64,000 nucleotides of DNA from a virus. The stretch is from IMG/VR virus record IMGVR_UViG_3300037755_000757, positions 952-64,951 of that record. One strand, 5' to 3'. The notes under the pieces are model-generated. The model searched no databases and was not told the origin of the DNA. It saw nothing but the letters and a program-made list of their open reading frames with translations. Positions 1-49,980 of this stretch are shown here, piece by piece (positions within the stretch are counted from its first letter, which is position 1; every line of letters starts with the position of its first letter). A program made the translations under genes and the position numbers.

Positions 1-214
1 ATAGTAGTACTTCTGTATCTGTACCACCTAGGATTAAAATCTGGTAATCACTTTCTTTTAAGCTTTGGACCCAGATTTCGGCCAGTTGTACAGTTCCCAG
101 ATTGCAACCAGAGATATATGCTACCGGGTCGCGTTGCAGATTGCTGTTATTTGCAATTTCTTGCAGCGCTTCAGTCAGTGTGTGCATTTTGCACCAGTTA
201 CGAATTGCATTCAT
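1..214 (-). CDS. hypothetical protein, runs off window edge (MNAIRNWCKMHTLTEALQEI...)
   Basis: Manual translation; ATG at 214 preceded by AAAGGAGACC RBS and promoter 256-284; no stop before position 1. Confidence 0.65.
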   Translation of the reverse strand, partial: MNAIRNWCKMHTLTEALQEIANNSNLQRDPVAYISGCNLGTVQLAEIWVQSLKESDYQILILGGTDTEVLL

Positions 215-255
215 TTTGGTCTCCTTTGCGGCCAGCCCTTGCTGACCATGAATTG

Positions 256-284
256 AATATAGCACTGCTTCAGGCAAAAGACAA
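256..284 (-). promoter_or_regulatory. sigma70-type promoter TTGTCT-N17-TATATT, with palindromic operator-like site TGTGGC-N6-GCCACT (284-301) abutting the -35
   Basis: Exact 17 bp spacing; same architecture at 749-777, 9184-9212, 47274-47302. Confidence 0.7.
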
Positions 285-341
285 GTGGCAATTTCGCCAC
301 AGACAGAAAAAACAACAAAATATATTTTTCGTGGTAGAATA

Positions 342-368
342 GCCACAGCAACCGAGGGTTGCTGTGGC
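342..368. terminator. perfect 12 bp hairpin GCCACAGCAACC-gag-GGTTGCTGTGGC (possible terminator or operator)
   Basis: Perfect inverted repeat just downstream of ORF 389-487. Confidence 0.45.
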
Positions 369-388
369 CGAGTCATACTACTGTGCTA

Positions 389-487
389 TTAATGCAACAG
401 ACTGTAGACAAGTGACGCGCCGCCTGCAAATCCCATGGCGAAAATTACAGAACCGATGCATACATCACGAAGGAATTCTACTGTCAT
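389..487 (-). CDS. 32 aa single-TM peptide (MTVEFLRDVCIGSVIFAMGFAGGASLVYSLLH)
   Basis: Manual translation; GGAG RBS upstream; hydrophobic segment. Confidence 0.5.
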   Translation of the reverse strand: MTVEFLRDVCIGSVIFAMGFAGGASLVYSLLH

Positions 488-511
488 TTTAATCTCCATT
501 GTGGCCAAAGT

Positions 512-538
512 GCCACTGCAACTAAGAGTTGCAGTGGC
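512..538. terminator. perfect 12 bp hairpin GCCACTGCAACT-aag-AGTTGCAGTGGC
   Basis: Perfect inverted repeat just after the stop of ORF 545-709; paralogous to hairpin 342-368. Confidence 0.45.
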
Positions 539-544
539 TTGGAA

Positions 545-709
545 TTACGCTTGCCAGTTGCGACGTTCTGCTGCTAGCTGGGTCTTGCTTATGGGGTTAG
601 TTTCGGCTCCATAAGCCAGTACCGGCGGACACTTGGTGATCGTACCGCCATTGCGGAGGTAGTCCATCACCATGATTGCAACTGCAAGTTGTTCCAGTTT
701 CTTGTCCAT
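545..709 (-). CDS. 54 aa conserved-type phage protein (YLRNGGTITKCPP motif)
   Basis: C-terminal part of track ORF 545-1087; true start taken at 709 because of AAAGGAGACCAAAATG RBS and promoter 749-777. Confidence 0.7.
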   Translation of the reverse strand: MDKKLEQLAVAIMVMDYLRNGGTITKCPPVLAYGAETNPISKTQLAAERRNWQA

Positions 710-748
710 TTTGGTCTCCTTTGCAGTGGCCTTATTGCCACTATCAAT

Positions 749-777
749 ATGATACCACGGCCGGAGGCAAAAGACAA
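749..777 (-). promoter_or_regulatory. promoter TTGTCT-N17-TATCAT flanked by two GTGGC-N6-GCCAC palindromes (725-742, 777-794)
   Basis: 30 bp upstream block near-identical to 273-302. Confidence 0.7.
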
Positions 778-889
778 GTGGCAATTTCGCCACAGCATGA
801 AAAAAGAAAAATAAATTATCGGTGTGGCAGATTCGCCACTGTTGCCCAAGAGACGCACTGCGGCGGATCGGCACCACCTTGGGCGATCC

Positions 890-1750
890 GGAAATTGTGT
901 CCAAATCATGTCCAAAATAAGTTGAAAATGTGTCCAAAATCTTTTGTCCAGGTTGTATACAATCTCTCCAAATGTTTGAGTGTGGCTGATTCGCAACACT
1001 AATATATAAGGAAGATTGTATACAATTCTCCTTATATATCAGTGTGGTATTTATGCAACAAAAATGATTACGGAAGATTGTATACAATCGGGACTAATAT
1101 ATTAGTGTGTCTTTCTTGCAACACTAAACATTTATGAAGATTGTATACAATCGGTCCCAAACATTTTTGTTGCAAAAATACAACACTAATATATAAGGAA
1201 GATTGTATACAATCTCTCCAAATGTTTGAGTGTGGCGAATCAGCAACACTAATCTTTAGTCCGGATTGTATACATGACTGATATGTTGTATATCTGCAAC
1301 AGTAATCTTTGGTCAGGATTGTATGCAAGATTATGTCCAAATTGTGTCCAATTCAAGGCAAAACTGTGTCCAAAATCTTTTGGCTAGACACTACATCTAG
1401 TAGGCAAAGTCTAGTCAGACACTATATGTAATATGATCCAACATTGTTGTATTTTTGCAACAGTGGTCAACTCTTGGGCTGTGGCATTTCTGCAACACAA
1501 ATCATTTGGATCGATTGTATGCAAGATTGTGTCCAAAATAAGTTGAAAATGTGTCCAAAATCTTTTGTCCAGATTGTATACAATCTCGTGTGAGTTGCAT
1601 TTCGGCCACAGTATCATTTCTGCAACGATGTGGCGAAAGAGCAACTGTGGCAGAAAGAGCACTGTTGTGAATCGGCAACTGTGGCTCTTTCGCAACGATG
1701 TGGTATTTGAGCAACTGTGGCAGATCTGCAACTGTGTCATTTCTGCAACA
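890..1750. repeat. non-coding phased repeat region: GATTGTATACAATC palindromes every 62-63 bp, interleaved TGTKGC-N6-GCAACA palindromes, 17 bp tandem array, TGTCCAAA modules, 58 bp direct repeat (909-966/1530-1587)
   Basis: Read directly; palindrome starts at 951, 1014, 1076, 1139, 1201, 1264, then 1317, 1513, 1572. Confidence 0.9.
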
Positions 1751-1784
1751 GACCGAGAGAAAGAGGGTCATTCTTTCGGAGAAT

Positions 1785-2230
1785 GAGATCGTCCGTCTTC
1801 CATTTTTGGACGGTCCGTCTTCCATTTTTTGTCTAACAACCAGTAAAAGATTACGGTTATTGATAGGACGTGTACTGTTTATTAATACGAGAGCCTTCCA
1901 ACTTCCATTACGGCTGTGGATAGGTGGGGGCCGTTGGACCCTCTTTTGTGGTAAAATAGTACCACTGACAGAAGAATTGTCTGTAATGTTAACGTTAACA
2001 GTGATATGTTATATATCAGTCTTGTCACTATAATTCAGTCATGTTAACGTTAACACTGATATGTTGTATATCAGTTGATGTGGTAGGAGAATACCACTGA
2101 TGCACAAATACCACATGAAAGATCTTTCATTCTGTTGCAAAAATGACACAGAATGGATCTTTCATGGAGTCATGCAGAGATGGTCAGTCTCGTTTTCACA
2201 GTGAGATTGTCCGTCTTCCATTTTCCAAAA
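1785..2230. repeat. second repeat block: GTCCGTCTTCCATTTT x3, TGTTAACGTTAACA x2, ACTGATAT-N5-ATATCAGT, GTGGTA-N6-TACCAC x2
   Basis: Copies near 1790, 1814, 2208; 1987, 2042; 1949, 2080. Confidence 0.75.
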
Positions 2231-2277
2231 CGAAAAATGTTCAGCGTTTTTCGACCAAAATTTTCAGGAAATTTTGA

Positions 2278-2970
2278 TCATTTTTCCTCAATCTTATCCT
2301 TCTCAGGTTGTGGAAGAGCTTCAACGACTTCCGTGAATTCCGCGTCAATAGCCTTTTGACCGAATCTTTTCTCCCATTCATCAATGCTGCCCAGGGAGGC
2401 AGGAGCCACCAACACTCCGCCGGTGAAACCGATATTTAGGTCTTGGCGATCCCTGTAACCGGGTTCAACCCTCTTTGCTTCTAGCTCAATGAGCTTGTAC
2501 GGGTAGATCTTTTCTGTGGAGATAACATTCCCGTTGCGGTCATAGTTGATCTTCTCGGTGCCGTTAAAGGCCAGATCTTGGATGAGAGCGACCACGTGAT
2601 CGCGGTATTCTTGCTCCGAGGCGACCACAGCTTCGCCGAAATCCGGATCGGTTTGCATATGTGACCGAACTGTCGACAGCGTCACTCCGGCCGCTGCGGC
2701 GGAATCACCCATCCGATTGGTCCTCGCGTACAGTGAAAGGAACAAAACCTTCTTTCTGTCGGAGAAACCACCCTTGCGATCAATGCGGATTCTTCGCTGT
2801 TTTCTGCCCCGATCGTCGGTGAATTCCTCGATGTAGGTCGTGCGCCCAGATGGGCGGAATCGGCGCTCCCGATCTAGGATGAACTGGGGAACTTGGAGGT
2901 CGGTTTCTTCCGTGATTTCGTCGTCGTATTCTTCGTCATATGTATTATCATGGTCACTTGTCATTTGCAT
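2278..2970 (-). CDS. terS: probable terminase small subunit
   Basis: Acidic N-terminus, HTH-like 'KKVLFLSLYARTNRMGDSAAAAGVTLSTVRSHMQTDPDFGEAV' typical of TerS; terL is not in the window. Confidence 0.6.
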   Translation of the reverse strand: MQMTSDHDNTYDEEYDDEITEETDLQVPQFILDRERRFRPSGRTTYIEEFTDDRGRKQRRIRIDRKGGFSDRKKVLFLSLYARTNRMGDSAAAAGVTLSTVRSHMQTDPDFGEAVVASEQEYRDHVVALIQDLAFNGTEKINYDRNGNVISTEKIYPYKLIELEAKRVEPGYRDRQDLNIGFTGGVLVAPASLGSIDEWEKRFGQKAIDAEFTEVVEALPQPEKDKIEEK

Positions 2971-3095
2971 ACCTGTCTGCGCGAAAGAGAAATCTTCGCA
3001 AGAATCAGAGAATTGAATGTGAGATCAGTTTAACCGACAATTGCCCAAAGAGCAAGCCCACAAACCGTCATCCAAAATCAAAACCACAAATCAAA

Positions 3096-3124
3096 ACATT
3101 ATGTAAACAAAACGGAAATTGCAA
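3096..3124 (-). promoter_or_regulatory. promoter TTGCAA-N17-TAATGT upstream of terS
   Basis: Hexamers with exact 17 bp spacing in an intergenic region. Confidence 0.5.
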
Positions 3125-3130
3125 CCAACA

Positions 3131-3480
3131 GTTGTTACTCTACTCCCTCTACTTCTTCTAGTAGTAGAGTATAAAAGTAAAGCGCAAAAAACCCAGCGAT
3201 AACAACACCTTACGGATCACACTCTACTCCCTCATCCTTCCGGAGCAAAAGCCACCAAGCACAAAAAAAAAATGCGCGCGCTTAGCCAAAACCTTCCGAA
3301 GGATGAGCAAGTAGAGCGTTTACCATAACTCCGAGCTAACCCCTTGTTTTATCTGCATTTTTTCATAATGTGTAAAGAAATAAAGTAAAGCAGGGGATGA
3401 GCAATTTGACTCTAAGTAGAGGGGAGTAGAGTGTGAACCGAACATTTTCCAAAATATTTACCATAACTCCAGACACCAGC
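3131..3480. repeat. origin-like locus A (TACTCTACT/AGTAGAG inverted motifs, AAAGTAAAGCAGG, CCATAACTC); homologous to 49663-49980
   Basis: 21 bp identity 3163-3183 = 49698-49718; further shared blocks in the same order. Confidence 0.75.
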
Positions 3481-3709
3481 GAGTAACATGAACCTCCACA
3501 TCGCTAAACATGAGTACTAAAACCTAAAAATCTGGCATGCTTCTTGCTACCTAAAAAACCAGTAACAAGAAGCATAGAGCAGCAATTTTGGACCTCAAAA
3601 CAGACCTTCACATTCCTAATCGTTCCCTCAAACACACAAAAAGCTTGCGTTGAGAACTCTTGTTAAATAAAAAGGGGTTCCAAACTAGTAACACGAAGGA
3701 TAAAATAGT

Positions 3710-4432
3710 ATGCATCGGCAGATAGATTGGTCAGATTTCGTAAGATACTGGAACGAAAAACCAGAAAATCTGAGGCCATTGGGGGTCTCCTTAGAACTTC
3801 AATCCCCTAGAGCACCAAATTTCAATTTCTCACACGACCTATCAAGACTAAACTTCAATCCATACAAAGCCAAACATCTTCACACAATCTTCCTAGCATA
3901 TCGGAATCCTCAACTCCCACGTTCAGTCATAAACACAAAGATACTGAAATCCTTAGTCACATATGATCCTGTCTACTACGATGGCGAGTATCTCTTCGCC
4001 GAACCGACAGACGCACAGTACGGAGCCGAGTTCCTCCTTGCTTGCCTATTACCCCTTCTCCTTGGGCGAAAGTTGAGGTGGACAGAAATCCAAGGATACC
4101 AGAATTTAGATCCCGCAGATTCCAGGATGCTTTGTGAAACGCTGTGCGAAAAAAGACCGGATGTCTGGTGGCCATACTATAGGCCAGTTCTCTTTGGTCG
4201 TCCTCAAATGCATGTTGGGAAAAAGTTGATGAGACATTTCAAACGTGGAGAACTCACAGATTGTATACTGGAAATTCTACCTAACAGATTAGCGAATATC
4301 GTTAATCATGTCCAGAAACACACAGGTGCTACGAGAAAGGATATTCAAAACAGCGTGACAACAAGTTTGTACAGACTAAAAGTAGAAGGAAAAATAATAA
4401 ACGAAGACGGAATATGGAAACCCCGACAGTAA
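3710..4432 (+). CDS. hypothetical protein, possible C-terminal winged helix; only plus-strand gene
   Basis: 240 aa ORF with AAGGA RBS, own terminator, no competing minus-strand gene. Confidence 0.7.
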   Translation: MHRQIDWSDFVRYWNEKPENLRPLGVSLELQSPRAPNFNFSHDLSRLNFNPYKAKHLHTIFLAYRNPQLPRSVINTKILKSLVTYDPVYYDGEYLFAEPTDAQYGAEFLLACLLPLLLGRKLRWTEIQGYQNLDPADSRMLCETLCEKRPDVWWPYYRPVLFGRPQMHVGKKLMRHFKRGELTDCILEILPNRLANIVNHVQKHTGATRKDIQNSVTTSLYRLKVEGKIINEDGIWKPRQ

Positions 4433-20018: not shown

Positions 20019-20821
20019 ACTTTTCGACGAAACAGAACAGCTGGACCCTTGAGCGGCACGATGTCTTTTTCGGTCAGCTCTGGATCTTTACTCATGTAGA
20101 AAGCCGAGTGGAACTTGGAAGCATTGCGATTGACAGCAAGGTCTTTCAAGCCAGCATCCTCGTCCACGAGCATTTCGTATTCAGCTCCAGAAACAAGAGC
20201 CGGCACTCTCGCCAACGTCACCCCTTCGCCCAGGAAGAGGGCACACAGTCCGGATACAAGGTCGGGATCGGGTTCCTTGGGCCACCAGACCATGTTTCCA
20301 GCAATCATGCCGTCCGGATCGATGACCTCGTAGTGAGTTTCGTAACCACGCTCGCCGAGCTTGTAAGCCGTGTTGAGAGTCTGAACAAACTCAACGCGAG
20401 TGGTATTGCCGAAATTTCCTTCCGGAAACCTGCCCTTCTCATCGTTCCGTATGTTGCCCTCCATCATGAACTGGCCCGGCGATATTTCCGTGATGCGCCA
20501 GTTATCCAGGACCGCCTCTGAGCCAGAGTTGATAGCGGCCTGAAGAGCCACCGTGTACGGATCTTTGCCGAGGTTGAGGCTGGTGTTTCCCTCCTTGGCG
20601 ATAACCAAGCCGGAGTTCTTCAGAATATTCTTGAATCGGTCTACGCGTTTCATTGGTCTTGTCCTACTTCCTGGTTTCCTTGAATTATGATCAGCGCACA
20701 TATCACACATCGCGTACTCAGTCTGGTCGCGCTCAACCCAGACCATAGTTTCGGCAGGTCGCCCGCACGGAATATAGAAGTTCATCGAAAGCGTGGACGC
20801 TTCCTCACAGGTCGCCTTCAT
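20009..20821 (-). CDS. multi-domain hypothetical protein, C-terminal DUF3846-like
   Basis: 'MLVDEDAGLKDLAVNRNAS...LKGPAVLF'. Confidence 0.65.
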   Translation of the reverse strand: MKATCEEASTLSMNFYIPCGRPAETMVWVERDQTEYAMCDMCADHNSRKPGSRTRPMKRVDRFKNILKNSGLVIAKEGNTSLNLGKDPYTVALQAAINSGSEAVLDNWRITEISPGQFMMEGNIRNDEKGRFPEGNFGNTTRVEFVQTLNTAYKLGERGYETHYEVIDPDGMIAGNMVWWPKEPDPDLVSGLCALFLGEGVTLARVPALVSGAEYEMLVDEDAGLKDLAVNRNASKFHSAFYMSKDPELTEKDIVPLKGPAVLFRRKVWF

Positions 20822-21092
20822 CGTACTGTCCTGTTATGGGTTCCAGGTCGAGAGTTTGTTCACCTGTCTCGAGTCTGGAAATGGTGACTGCGGAAGTCTT
20901 TAACTCTTCAGCAACATATGTGAGAGTGAGACCGCTGTGCAACCTCAGTGCTCGCAGATAGCGACCAACCGCGAACCTGAGTATTCCTCGCTCTTTCTTT
21001 ACGGGAGACCGATCATGTCGTACTGGCGATCCAGCAGGGCCATTTCCTGATGGTCCTGTTCTTCTTCCGCTTTTCTCCACCTTCTCCTCCAT
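20805..21092 (-). CDS. XRE/Cro-type HTH protein
   Basis: 'LRALRLHSGLTLTYVAEELKTSAVTISRLETGEQ'. Confidence 0.75.
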   Translation of the reverse strand: MEEKVEKSGRRTGPSGNGPAGSPVRHDRSPVKKERGILRFAVGRYLRALRLHSGLTLTYVAEELKTSAVTISRLETGEQTLDLEPITGQYDEGDL

Positions 21093-29694: not shown

Positions 29695-30111
29695 TCAGCA
29701 CTCCCAGAACCAAATCAGTCTCTCACAGCTAACTATGCCGCATTCCATCTGACGAATCCAGTTGCGACTGAGACCAGACTCTGCAGAAAGTTTTTCCTGG
29801 GTCCACCCACAACGTCTACGATAGAGCATGCATCGTTCGTAATCAAGTAAGAACATGACCTTTGGTTCTGGGATATCAGGAAATTCCCGTGTTCCTTTCT
29901 CAAGCATCACGTAACTATTTCTCGTAATGCCGAGACGGTCAGCGGCCTGCTGCTGAGTTTCCTTTGATCTTCTTCTACTTATAAGAAACTTCTCGTGGCG
30001 TTCCAGTGCTTTCTCATCCAGTCCATCAGTACGGGACCGTTCAGCCCCTTCATGTGGAGAAGACAATTCTCGAACATCTCCGGTTTCGTCATGTTCCCTA
30101 ACTTCTGACAC
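29695..30111 (-). CDS. tandem two-HTH (XRE) regulator
   Basis: 'TQQQAADRLGITRNSYVMLEKG' and 'WTQEKLSAESGLSRNWIRQMECG'. Confidence 0.8.
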   Translation of the reverse strand: MSEVREHDETGDVRELSSPHEGAERSRTDGLDEKALERHEKFLISRRRSKETQQQAADRLGITRNSYVMLEKGTREFPDIPEPKVMFLLDYERCMLYRRRCGWTQEKLSAESGLSRNWIRQMECGIVSCERLIWFWEC

Positions 30112-49648: not shown

Positions 49649-49662
49649 GACAGTTACAACCG

Positions 49663-49980
49663 GTAGTTGTTACTCTACTTACTCTACAATTTTAACAAGT
49701 AGAGTATAAAAGTAAAGCAGCACTTTTGCAGCAATTACAACGGCTTAGACGGTGAGTTATGGTAAACCCTCTACTTACTCTACTTTTTGGGCCAATTTTG
49801 GGTTGCACAACTTTTGCGCGTTTTGCGCCGCAACTGCAAAATAGGTTGTGCAAGTAAAGCAGGTAGAGTTTTTTCCATAACTCAGGAGCTAAGCCTTTGT
49901 AATTAAAGCATTCTTCCGTACTCTACTTTTTTCTATTGTGCACTGCAAAAGTAAAGCAGGACAACCCAAGTAGAGCATAA
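49663..49980. repeat. origin-like locus B, homologous to 3131-3480
   Basis: Multiple TACTCTACT/AGTAGAG motifs, inverted GAGTTATGG/CCATAACTC pair. Confidence 0.75.

What the first reader, a model, noticed from the sequence alone, without database searches (positions are those of the whole stretch)
945..1330. Phased array of two interleaved palindromes with a 62-63 bp period next to terS
Seen: GATTGTATACAATC (14 bp palindrome, minor variants) starts at 951, 1014, 1076, 1139, 1201, 1264, with spacings 63, 62, 63, 62, 63, i.e. about six helical turns. Midway in each unit sits a second palindrome, TGTKGY-N6-RCAACA. Inference: an ordered two-protein nucleoprotein scaffold with all sites on one helix face, as in packaging (pac/cos) or replication origins. 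Lying just downstream of the probable terS favours a genome-end/packaging role. TTGTATACAA also resembles GntR-family operators.
Basis: partly seen in the sequence, partly recalled or inferred. Interest (0 to 1): 0.75.

Follow-up and report, generated by a model that had tools for sequence, protein, structure and literature searches.

The report
Phased two-palindrome array near phage genome end
A non-coding stretch of an uncultured 77.5-kb phage holds a real, evenly spaced array of two alternating palindromic protein-docking sites; it is shared with related phages in 0 to 7 copies, and it lies in a control region between the small-terminase gene and the early genes that appears to be present twice per virus DNA molecule.

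Summary
GATTGTATACAATC (A) occurs only in this non-coding region. It starts at 951, 1014, 1076, 1139 and 1201, with decayed copies at 1264, 1317 and 1513 and a perfect copy at 1572. Six matches were found against 0.16 expected by chance. A second site, TGTKGY-N6-RCAACA (B), lies 31-32 bp (three helical turns) from each A centre.

The unit length (62/63 bp) is not a multiple of 3. No Rfam family matches and nothing codes here.

Related uncultured phages carry the same A-B pair at the same 31-32 bp spacing, but in 3, 3, 2, 1 or 0 copies. Two strains about 98-99% identical differ only by an A-B-A indel. The array is therefore an amplifiable, dispensable accessory of a conserved control region.

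The region's other motifs (an 11-bp C repeat, B and D) travel with a conserved early protein, p167, whose C-terminal domain may be a winged helix. They do not travel with TerS type.

Independent unitigs covering 273-1559 have 2.0-2.65 times the k-mer depth of the 50.9-kb main contig. This suggests terminal redundancy.

Best reading (confidence about 0.5): a cooperative nucleoprotein array in the terminal/early-control module. It resembles the T5 terminal-repeat untranslated region in form, but it is not a proven pac site, origin or centromere.

The parts
712..2277 (.). 1.57-kb non-coding control region between terS and the first early gene. It holds five repeat families (A, B, C, D, E), all with fixed polarity.
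   Evidence: The repeats match nothing outside window 217-2277.
951..1248 (.). Five full A-B units. A sites are at 951, 1014, 1076, 1139, 1201; B sites are at 981, 1043, 1106, 1168, 1231. The period is 62-63 bp and A-B centres are 31-32 bp apart.
1264..1330 (.). Two decayed units: A6 at 1264 (right arm lost), B6 at 1284 (22 bp from A6), and A7 at 1317 (TTGTATGCAA core).
898..950 (+). C-repeat cluster (TGTCCAAAAT, 11-bp register) that immediately precedes the first A site. The same C-then-A order is found in every relative that has an A site.
1330..1376 (+). Second C-repeat cluster, closing the array.
1445..1497 (+). Two further B sites (1445, 1480). The second is 31 bp from the decayed A at 1513.
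1513..1585 (.). Near-duplicate of 894-966 (92% over 74 bp): decayed A (1513), C cluster, perfect A (1572).
1592..1750 (+). Tandem 17-bp array of B-type sites (TGTGGC-N6-GCAAC). This is a neighbouring element of the same control region.
2278..2970 (-). Small terminase gene (terS). It is the last gene before the non-coding region on the coding strand.
   Evidence: phrog_4044, E 4e-22; tblastn to annotated terS of Pseudomonas and Bordetella phages.
749..793 (-). First early promoter-like site (TTGTCT-17-TATCAT with TG). A GTGGC-N6-GCCAC palindrome abuts its -35 hexamer. It lies about 180 bp from A1.
   Evidence: consensus scan only.
545..711 (-). First small early gene (55 aa), followed by a hairpin and a 32-aa membrane-peptide gene (388-487).
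   Evidence: Homologues occupy the same place in L132 and L145.
273..1559 (.). Stretch with 2.0-2.65 times the k-mer depth of the main contig (candidate terminal redundancy). Its true limits are unknown: there are no data left of 273, and to the right it is hidden inside a 50.9-kb contig.

Best explanation
The array is a non-coding bank of paired protein-binding sites. Its elementary unit is one A palindrome (GATTGTATACAATC) and one B site ((TTAG)TGTKGY-N6-RCAACA(CTAA)). Their centres are 31-32 bp apart, i.e. three helical turns, so both lie on the same face of the helix. This phage has amplified that unit to five full and two decayed copies. The A-B module belongs to a conserved control region of about 1-1.6 kb that sits between terS and a block of small early genes, and that region appears to be terminally redundant in the packaged DNA. 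Proposed mechanism (inferred, not shown): dimeric binders occupy A and B, contact each other across three turns, and bend or wrap the DNA into a compact nucleoprotein filament. This complex would act as a dose-dependent accessory of the genome-end/early-control module, serving end handling (packaging recognition, end protection or entry control) and/or control of the early promoters about 180 bp away.
For: Real and non-random: 6 A sites found against 0.16 expected, and none elsewhere in 77.5 kb. Non-coding: the unit of 62/63 bp is not a multiple of 3, there is no Rfam family, and no ORF is conserved. DNA-level constraint: A-B centre spacing of 31-32 bp is invariant in the window and in L132, L133/L134, L135 and L146, even where there is a single A. 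The A 14-mer and the B arms are conserved, while the B centres and linkers vary. B keeps its asymmetric arms (TGTGGC...GCAACA) in one orientation. These arms give a G.A or U.C mismatch as RNA, so this is not a hairpin under RNA selection. Module context: the C-then-A-then-D-then-B order is kept in all relatives. Motifs C, B and D co-occur with early protein p167 in 10 of 10 loci that have them. They are absent from 4 loci that lack p167 but have a closer TerS. The C-terminal domain of p167 gives weak winged-helix-like matches in two searches. Terminal redundancy: seven unitigs of single-copy 31-mers over 273-1559 have depth 796-1064, against 400.8 for the 50.9-kb contig that starts at 1543. 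The only loose end is the paralogous locus near 49.8 kb, not a second strain. Layout: terS and terL are separated by this region plus about 10 small orphan genes with their own promoter-like and hairpin signals, as expected if the concatemer junction lies here.
Against: No binding has been shown and no reader has been identified. The structural matches for p167 are weak (Z at most 4.1, TM about 0.55). Depth comes from contigs of one run that is probably the source sample. The limits of the 2x block are unseen, and a second strain sharing exactly this stretch, or local over-replication, is not excluded. Relatives at about 55% TerL identity (Mesyanzhinovviridae) are thought to be circularly permuted headful packagers (PMC11946847), which does not favour fixed terminal repeats. 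The period being close to 6 x 10.45 bp has a chance probability of roughly 0.1 on its own. A strain with no A site (L145) shows the array is not needed, so it could have little function.
Confidence: 0.5

Rival explanations
1. It is the pac (or cos-type) recognition site. TerS oligomers bind the phased sites and direct the first terminase cut.
For: It lies within 1 kb of the terS stop codon. The multi-site, phased layout resembles SPP1 pacL/pacR (own knowledge). The 2x depth suggests that terminal redundancy begins or ends nearby. terS and terL flank the region.
Against: A sites number 0-3 in close relatives, and a strain with none exists. The accompanying motifs C, B and D persist in L148/L149, where TerS is only 35-41% identical, yet they are missing in L136, L138, L143 and L144, where TerS is 53-58% identical. 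The sites are palindromes of the kind read by dimers, whereas TerS rings usually read short direct boxes (own knowledge).
Confidence: 0.15
2. It is (part of) the replication origin. Initiator proteins bind the repeats next to AT-rich DNA and open the duplex, and the raised depth reflects local over-replication.
For: The region is AT-rich (38% GC in 1001-2000 against about 50% elsewhere). Tandem 17-bp and 11-bp direct repeats lie nearby. Depth peaks at 766-938 and falls to both sides.
Against: There are no DnaA boxes in the array, and only one 1-mismatch box in the whole 1.6 kb. The replication genes lie 25-48 kb away. Two other homologous non-coding loci (3131-3480 and about 49.7 kb, next to the helicase gene) are alternative origin candidates. 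The copy number varies from 0 to 7. A narrow twofold block is not the usual shape of an origin gradient.
Confidence: 0.12
3. It is a largely neutral or selfish minisatellite. One functional A-B module was amplified by slippage or unequal recombination between its own repeats, and the extra units do nothing.
For: Copy number runs 0, 1, 2, 3, 3 and about 7 among relatives. The L145/L146 indel is bounded by C repeats. Units 1 and 5 share 34-36 identical bases, so the duplication is recent. The last two units are decaying.
Against: Five units keep perfect or near-perfect A sites and exact 31-32 bp spacing, while linkers and B centres have diverged. This points to selection on the sites and their phase.
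Confidence: 0.1
4. It acts as RNA. The region is the long 3' tail of the terS transcript or a separate RNA, and the nested palindromes form long hairpins (stability, RNase III processing or termination).
For: Single-strand folding of 940-1340 gives -89.9 kcal/mol, z = -14. No terminator-like site is predicted on the coding strand between terS and 793.
Against: No Rfam family matches; there are only sub-threshold microRNA-hairpin hits, which any long palindrome gives. The B arms keep a consistent non-pairing position. Any array of palindromes at symmetric spacing is self-complementary by construction.
Confidence: 0.05
5. It is a plasmid-type centromere (sopC-like) for a phage-plasmid lifestyle.
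For: It consists of tandem, helically phased units that each carry a palindromic site, with variable unit number, as in F sopC (own knowledge).
Against: The complete genome has no ParB, ParA/CbiA or integrase matches. The gene content is that of a virulent phage, with its own polymerase, primase, helicases and RNR.
Confidence: 0.03

Closest known systems
Untranslated Repeat Region 3 / injection-stop (iss) region in the left terminal repeat of T5-like phages (Davison, bioRxiv 10.1101/866236)
   Same: It is a gene-free stretch of about 1.2 kb packed with nested direct repeats, inverted repeats and palindromes, including nine tandem copies of one repeat. Some spacings are whole numbers of helical turns. 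It sits at the inner end of a terminal repeat beside small (pre-)early genes, and it is more conserved than the neighbouring ORFs. Here the gene-free stretch is 1.57 kb, with five repeat families, about nine tandem 17-bp B-type units, 3- and 6-turn spacings, 2x depth, and adjacent small early genes.
   Different: The hallmark paired DnaA boxes of T5 are absent here. The sequences are unrelated. Terminal-repeat status here rests only on contig depth. Two-step DNA entry is unknown for this lineage. The A-B array varies from 0 to 7 units among close relatives.
T7 concatemer junction: terminal repeat flanked by short-repeat arrays SRL/SRR (own knowledge)
   Same: Arrays of short repeats of unknown reader lie next to the terminal redundancy, between the last late gene and the early promoters.
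   Different: The T7 repeats are short direct heptamers, not alternating palindromes. The T7 terminal repeat is 160 bp with mapped ends.
F plasmid sopC and similar centromeres (12 x 43-bp units, each with a palindromic SopB site; own knowledge)
   Same: Tandem units of a whole number of helical turns each carry a dimer-type palindrome. One unit is enough, and the number varies.
   Different: Two different palindromes alternate here. The genome has no ParA/ParB. The phage has a virulent-type gene set.
SPP1/SF6 pac (pacL-pacC-pacR boxes bound by TerS G1P; own knowledge)
   Same: It is a multi-site, phased, probably bent recognition region close to terS.
   Different: The motif set follows an early-gene module and not the TerS lineage. 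The array is dispensable in a natural strain.
BIME-2 arrays of E. coli (alternating Y and Z2 REP palindromes; own knowledge)
   Same: They are extragenic tandem arrays in which two palindrome types alternate at fixed linkers, with variable copy number.
   Different: The A-B array is confined to one locus, is AT-rich, lacks the REP head motif, and the phage has no RAYT/Y1 transposase.

Membership tests
TerS-recognised pac site (SPP1/P22/P1 type) | The site lies in or next to the terS gene. | tested here: met
   The array starts about 950 bp beyond the terS stop codon, in the same non-coding region.
TerS-recognised pac site (SPP1/P22/P1 type) | The recognition motifs co-vary with the TerS DNA-binding protein. 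| tested here: not met
   Motifs C, B and D are present with a 35-41% identical TerS (L148/L149) and absent with a 53-58% identical TerS (L136, L138, L143, L144). For motif A alone the sample is too small to say.
TerS-recognised pac site (SPP1/P22/P1 type) | Packaging series or termini start at the site. | not testable with these tools
   Only Logan contigs were available, so there were no read starts.
Direct terminal repeat / terminal redundancy | The repeat has about twice the sequencing depth of the unique genome. | tested here: met
   Single-copy-31-mer unitigs over 273-1559 have depth 796-1064, against 400.8 for the 50.9-kb contig. This is one run, probably the source sample.
Direct terminal repeat / terminal redundancy | The repeat has sharp boundaries marked by read-end pile-ups. 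| not testable with these tools
   No raw reads were available. There was no cover left of 273, and the right limit is hidden inside a long contig.
T5-type iss untranslated region | A large untranslated repeat and palindrome region lies in the terminal repeat beside pre-early genes. | tested here: inconclusive
   The form and position match, but terminal-repeat status is inferred from depth only.
T5-type iss untranslated region | There are conserved paired DnaA boxes. | tested here: not met
   There is one 1-mismatch box (1915-1923) in 700-2300 and none in the array.
Iteron-type replication origin | Direct repeats lie next to an AT-rich unwinding element and the initiator gene. | tested here: inconclusive
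   AT-rich DNA and nearby direct repeats are present. However, A and B are palindromes, and the primase, helicase and polymerase genes lie 25-48 kb away.
sopC/parS-type centromere | A cognate ParA/ParB (or ParR/ParM) pair is encoded by the replicon. | tested here: not met
   PF02195 and PF01656 give no match in the complete genome.
CRISPR array | Identical repeats of 23-47 bp are separated by unrelated spacers. | tested here: not met
   The conserved part is only 14-18 bp, and the 'spacers' share the B palindrome and D boxes.
GntR-family operator | The element encodes a GntR-type regulator able to read the TTGTATACAA core. | tested here: not met
   PF00392 gives no match at E up to 1 in the genome. 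A host GntR protein cannot be excluded. The operator resemblance itself comes from memory and was not tested.
REP/BIME arrays | Copies are dispersed and a RAYT (Y1 transposase) is present. | tested here: not met
   The A site is confined to one locus and PF01797 gives no match.

The most novel reading that the evidence does not exclude
The array is the core of a new kind of genome-end 'cap' in a siphophage lineage with hypermodified thymine. Early or virion proteins would read T-rich palindromes, possibly in their modified form (as SPO1 TF1 prefers hydroxymethyluracil DNA). They would wrap the terminal repeat into a phased filament that pauses or protects the entering DNA end, working like the T5 injection-stop region but with a different reader and no DnaA boxes. 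Unit number would be tuned by rapid expansion and contraction.
Probability: 0.12. Interest if true: 0.75.

Novelty: new variant of a known kind. Interest (0 to 1): 0.45.

Why it matters
Repeat-laden non-coding regions at phage genome ends (T5 iss, the T7 junction arrays) have been known for decades, yet their readers and mechanisms are still largely unknown. This element offers an unusually clean case. It has a two-site unit with fixed three-turn geometry. Nature supplies a copy-number series from 0 to 7, including near-isogenic strains with and without it. A co-inherited early protein is a candidate reader. The phage probably carries hypermodified thymine. If the terminal-repeat reading holds, it would also show that this branch of Mesyanzhinovviridae-like phages has moved its genome ends, together with a pre-early module, between terS and terL.

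Tried and rejected
- **Phage DNA search:** blastn of 700-2300 against 50,697 phage records gave no match.
- **IMG/VR searches:** the exact two-copy 14-mer pattern gave none. The search for related loci with TerS gave none.
- **Metagenome scan:** The multi-copy hits L039 and L043 are unrelated plain 62-bp minisatellites. Only L123 was a true relative.
- **A-plus-B pattern scans:** the scan of 185,579 prokaryote genomes gave 0 hits, so there is no host clue. In IMG/VR it added only L150, an unrelated phage with a chance match.
- **Rfam:** only sub-threshold microRNA-hairpin matches.
- **Sequencing runs:** no RNA holder was listed. The one DNA run is kept as contigs, so termini and strand could not be read, and window 1-272 had no cover.
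- **Promoters inside the units:** only two weak 9-of-12 matches, fewer than in shuffles. This reading was rejected.
- **Host-factor sites:** no DnaA, CtrA or IHF sites in the array.
- **More distant relatives:** Ab18 and Simon have no comparable array, nor do L136, L138 and L143.
- **p167 fold:** Foldseek against the PDB gave nothing at E up to 0.001. VIA-align gave Z at most 4.1 and the Atlas gave TM about 0.55 to winged-helix domains; these are leads only.
- **Pfam on 75 small proteins:** one clear HTH protein (95 aa, window 20805-21092) and a weaker double-HTH frame (29695-30111). No RHH and no GntR were found.
- **Literature search for TTGTATACAA:** only engineered Gateway att sites.
- **TerL relatives:** they span several packaging types at 33-60% identity, so TerL did not settle the end type.

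Full report
**Setting.** The window is bases 952-64951 of a 77,652-bp virus contig. The two contig ends overlap by 127 bp, so this is a circular assembly of 77,525 bp, and CheckV rates it 100% complete. It is a siphophage with nearly all genes on the minus strand. It carries a tape-measure protein, a family A DNA polymerase, a primase, two helicases and RNR. It is distantly related (about 50-60% amino-acid identity) to Pseudomonas PaMx11/Ab18/YuA-like phages, Bordetella CN1-like phages and phage Simon.

The gene at 2278-2970(-) is a small terminase (phrog_4044). The large terminase and portal genes lie outside the window, at genome 73005-74498 and 71475-72998. Read along the coding strand, the order is:
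- terS;
- a 1.57-kb gene-free region (window 2277 down to 712);
- about ten small orphan genes with their own promoter-like and hairpin signals;
- terL.

In Ab18 and Simon, terS abuts terL.

**The observation.** The 14-bp palindrome A (GATTGTATACAATC) starts at 951, 1014, 1076, 1139 and 1201. A decayed copy follows at 1264, so the spacings are 63, 62, 63, 62, 63. There are further copies at 1317 and 1513 (decayed) and 1572 (perfect). Chance expectation is 0.16 per window, and no copy exists elsewhere in the genome.

Site B (TGTKGY-N6-RCAACA, often flanked by TTAG...CTAA) lies between successive A sites. Centre-to-centre distances run 32, 31, 31, 31, 32, 31 and so on, which is three helical turns. 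A third small palindrome, D (CTAATATATTAG and variants), fills several linkers. Because every element is a palindrome at symmetric spacing, the five-unit block is itself a long imperfect palindrome. As single-stranded DNA it folds at -89.9 kcal/mol, z = -14.

B keeps the same asymmetric arms on the plus strand. The C repeats (TGTCCA: 11 copies in the region against 0 of the reverse complement) all point one way, so the region has polarity. The unit length is not a multiple of three. No Rfam family matches, and promoter-like hits inside the units are no more frequent than in shuffles.

**Assembly check.** An independent k=31 assembly of the one public run that holds this DNA tiles 922-1559 with unitigs that contain only single-copy 31-mers. 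Their depths are similar (985, 913, 837, 800, 796). No unit is therefore collapsed or duplicated by the assembler.

**Relatives.** TerS and early-protein searches recovered uncultured relatives with 88-89% identical TerL. All have terS, then a non-coding region of about 0.7-1.1 kb, then small genes, then terL. The region shows the same motif order: a promoter with a GTGGC-N6-GCCAC palindrome, a C-repeat cluster, A, D, B, further C and B sites, and CTCTTCCA-type repeats before terS.

The number of A sites varies as follows.

| Locus | A sites |
|---|---|
| This window | 5 full, plus 2 decayed in the array and 2 more (1 decayed, 1 perfect) at 1513-1585 |
| L132 | 3 |
| L133/L134 | 3 |
| L146 | 2 |
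| L135 | 1 |
| L145 | 0 |

L145 and L146 come from one study and are about 98-99% identical on both sides of a 115-bp indel. That indel removes exactly an A-B-A module between C repeats. The junction 31-mers of L145 are new, so it is a real variant and not a mis-join.

Wherever A is present, the next B centre is 31-32 bp away, and where a further A follows it lies 31 bp beyond that B. Across all units, the A 14-mer and the B arms are the information-rich columns, while B centres and linkers vary. The elementary unit is therefore one A-B pair three turns apart, and this phage holds an amplified version.

**Who reads it?** In loci with 68-80% identical TerL, the motifs C, B and D occur only where a conserved early protein, p167 (genome 245-748, minus strand), is present. 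They are present in L148 and L149, whose TerS is only 35-41% identical. They are missing in L136, L138, L143 and L144, which lack p167 although their TerS is 53-58% identical. The motif set thus travels with the early-gene module and not with TerS.

p167 has a disordered Lys/Ala/Pro-rich N-terminal half and a confidently modelled C-terminal domain (residues 83-166). That domain gives only weak matches to winged-helix domains such as PriA WH, MexR, Fur and HxlR/ArsR-type. This is a lead, not an identification.

The only Pfam-detectable HTH proteins are a 95-aa protein (20805-21092) and a weaker double-HTH frame (29695-30111). There is no GntR, ParB, ParA, integrase or Y1 transposase. Motif A itself is restricted to the close clade, so its reader cannot be inferred from phyletic pattern.

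**Depth.** Seven unitigs covering 273-1559 have k-mer depths of 796-1064. The 50,893-bp contig that begins at 1543 has depth 400.8. All of their 31-mers are single-copy in the assembled genome, so the ratio of 2.0-2.65 is not a repeat artefact.

Every unitig break coincides with a short internal repeat. The long contig runs on unbroken. The only loose end belongs to the paralogous locus near 49.8 kb. A second strain sharing exactly this stretch would have to diverge inside a 13-base repeat block.

The simplest reading is that this stretch is present twice per packaged genome, i.e. terminal redundancy collapsed by a circular assembly. The caveats are:
- this is one run, and probably the source sample;
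- there are no data left of 273;
- the right limit is hidden in a long contig;
- relatives in Mesyanzhinovviridae are considered headful packagers (PMC11946847);
- local over-replication is not excluded.

**Interpretation.** The strict three-turn geometry, the conservation of sites but not linkers, and the polarity point to cooperative protein binding on one helix face. The natural copy-number series, including zero, shows an accessory, dose-type element rather than the indispensable core of a pac site or origin. Two observations place it in a genome-end/early-control module: its position in a probably terminally redundant, gene-free region between the last late gene and the early promoters, and its co-inheritance with an early protein.

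In form, the nearest described thing is the untranslated Repeat Region 3 (iss) of T5-like phages. That region is also about 1.2 kb, lies at the inner end of a terminal repeat beside pre-early genes, holds nested repeats and palindromes with nine tandem copies of one repeat and helical-turn spacings, and is more conserved than the ORFs around it (10.1101/866236). The T5 hallmark of paired DnaA boxes is absent here, so this is a likeness of architecture and not membership.

The rival readings (TerS pac site, origin, neutral minisatellite, RNA structure, centromere) are weighed in their own sections.

**Verdict.** The finding is real, non-random, non-coding and conserved. It is a new variant of the known class of repeat arrays at phage genome ends and control regions.

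Noticed in passing
window 273-1559: The k-mer depth of independent unitigs is 2.0-2.65 times that of the 50.9-kb main contig of the same phage. This is candidate terminal redundancy collapsed in the circular assembly. The limits are not seen.
   Followed up: partly
L145:700-1660 vs L146:700-1800: Two ~98-99% identical strains from one study differ by a 115-bp indel that removes exactly an A-B-A module between C repeats. A third strain (L147) carries an extra 62-aa gene with its own promoter inserted in the same region.
   Followed up: yes
genome 245-748 (minus strand; left of the window), protein P0056: A conserved early protein (167 aa) has a Lys/Ala/Pro-rich disordered N-terminal half and a possible winged-helix C-terminal domain. 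It co-occurs with the ATTGTGTCCA (C) repeats in all 10 loci that have them and is absent from 4 loci that lack them.
   Followed up: partly
window 981-998 and 1231-1248: Units 1 and 5 are direct repeats, identical for 36 bases. However, the 6-bp centre of B is the exact reverse complement (TGATTC against GAATCA) while the asymmetric arms keep their orientation. This suggests flipping of the centre between the inverted arms, or selection on arm asymmetry.
   Followed up: no
window 1592-1750: About nine tandem 17-bp B-type sites (TGTGGC-N6-GCAAC) sit right after a perfect A site. Shorter versions occur in L133, L145 and L146.
   Followed up: partly
window 1791-1828 and 2209-2224: There are three exact copies of GTCCGTCTTCCATTTT between the B array and terS. 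Relatives have CACTCTTCCA-type repeats at the same place.
   Followed up: no
window 285-300, 726-741, 778-793, 824-839: Perfect GTGGC-N6-GCCAC palindromes abut the -35 hexamer of two early promoter-like sites and lie just after one start site. On the coding strand they also look like hairpin-plus-T-run terminators, so they may act as RNA hairpins, operators or both.
   Followed up: no
window 388-487 (minus strand): A 32-aa hydrophobic peptide gene with its own RBS is conserved in L133 and L147. It lies in the candidate terminal redundancy.
   Followed up: no
window 2971-3709 and about 49654-49900: The non-coding region upstream of terS shares 65-bp (80%) and shorter matches with a second non-coding locus next to the helicase gene. 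Several relatives' contigs end there, probably because of this repeat.
   Followed up: partly
window 3710-4432 (plus strand): The only plus-strand gene (240 aa, no family) has 30-35% identical homologues in the same opposite-strand position upstream of terS in L132 and L135. It belongs to the conserved layout and is not specific to the array.
   Followed up: partly
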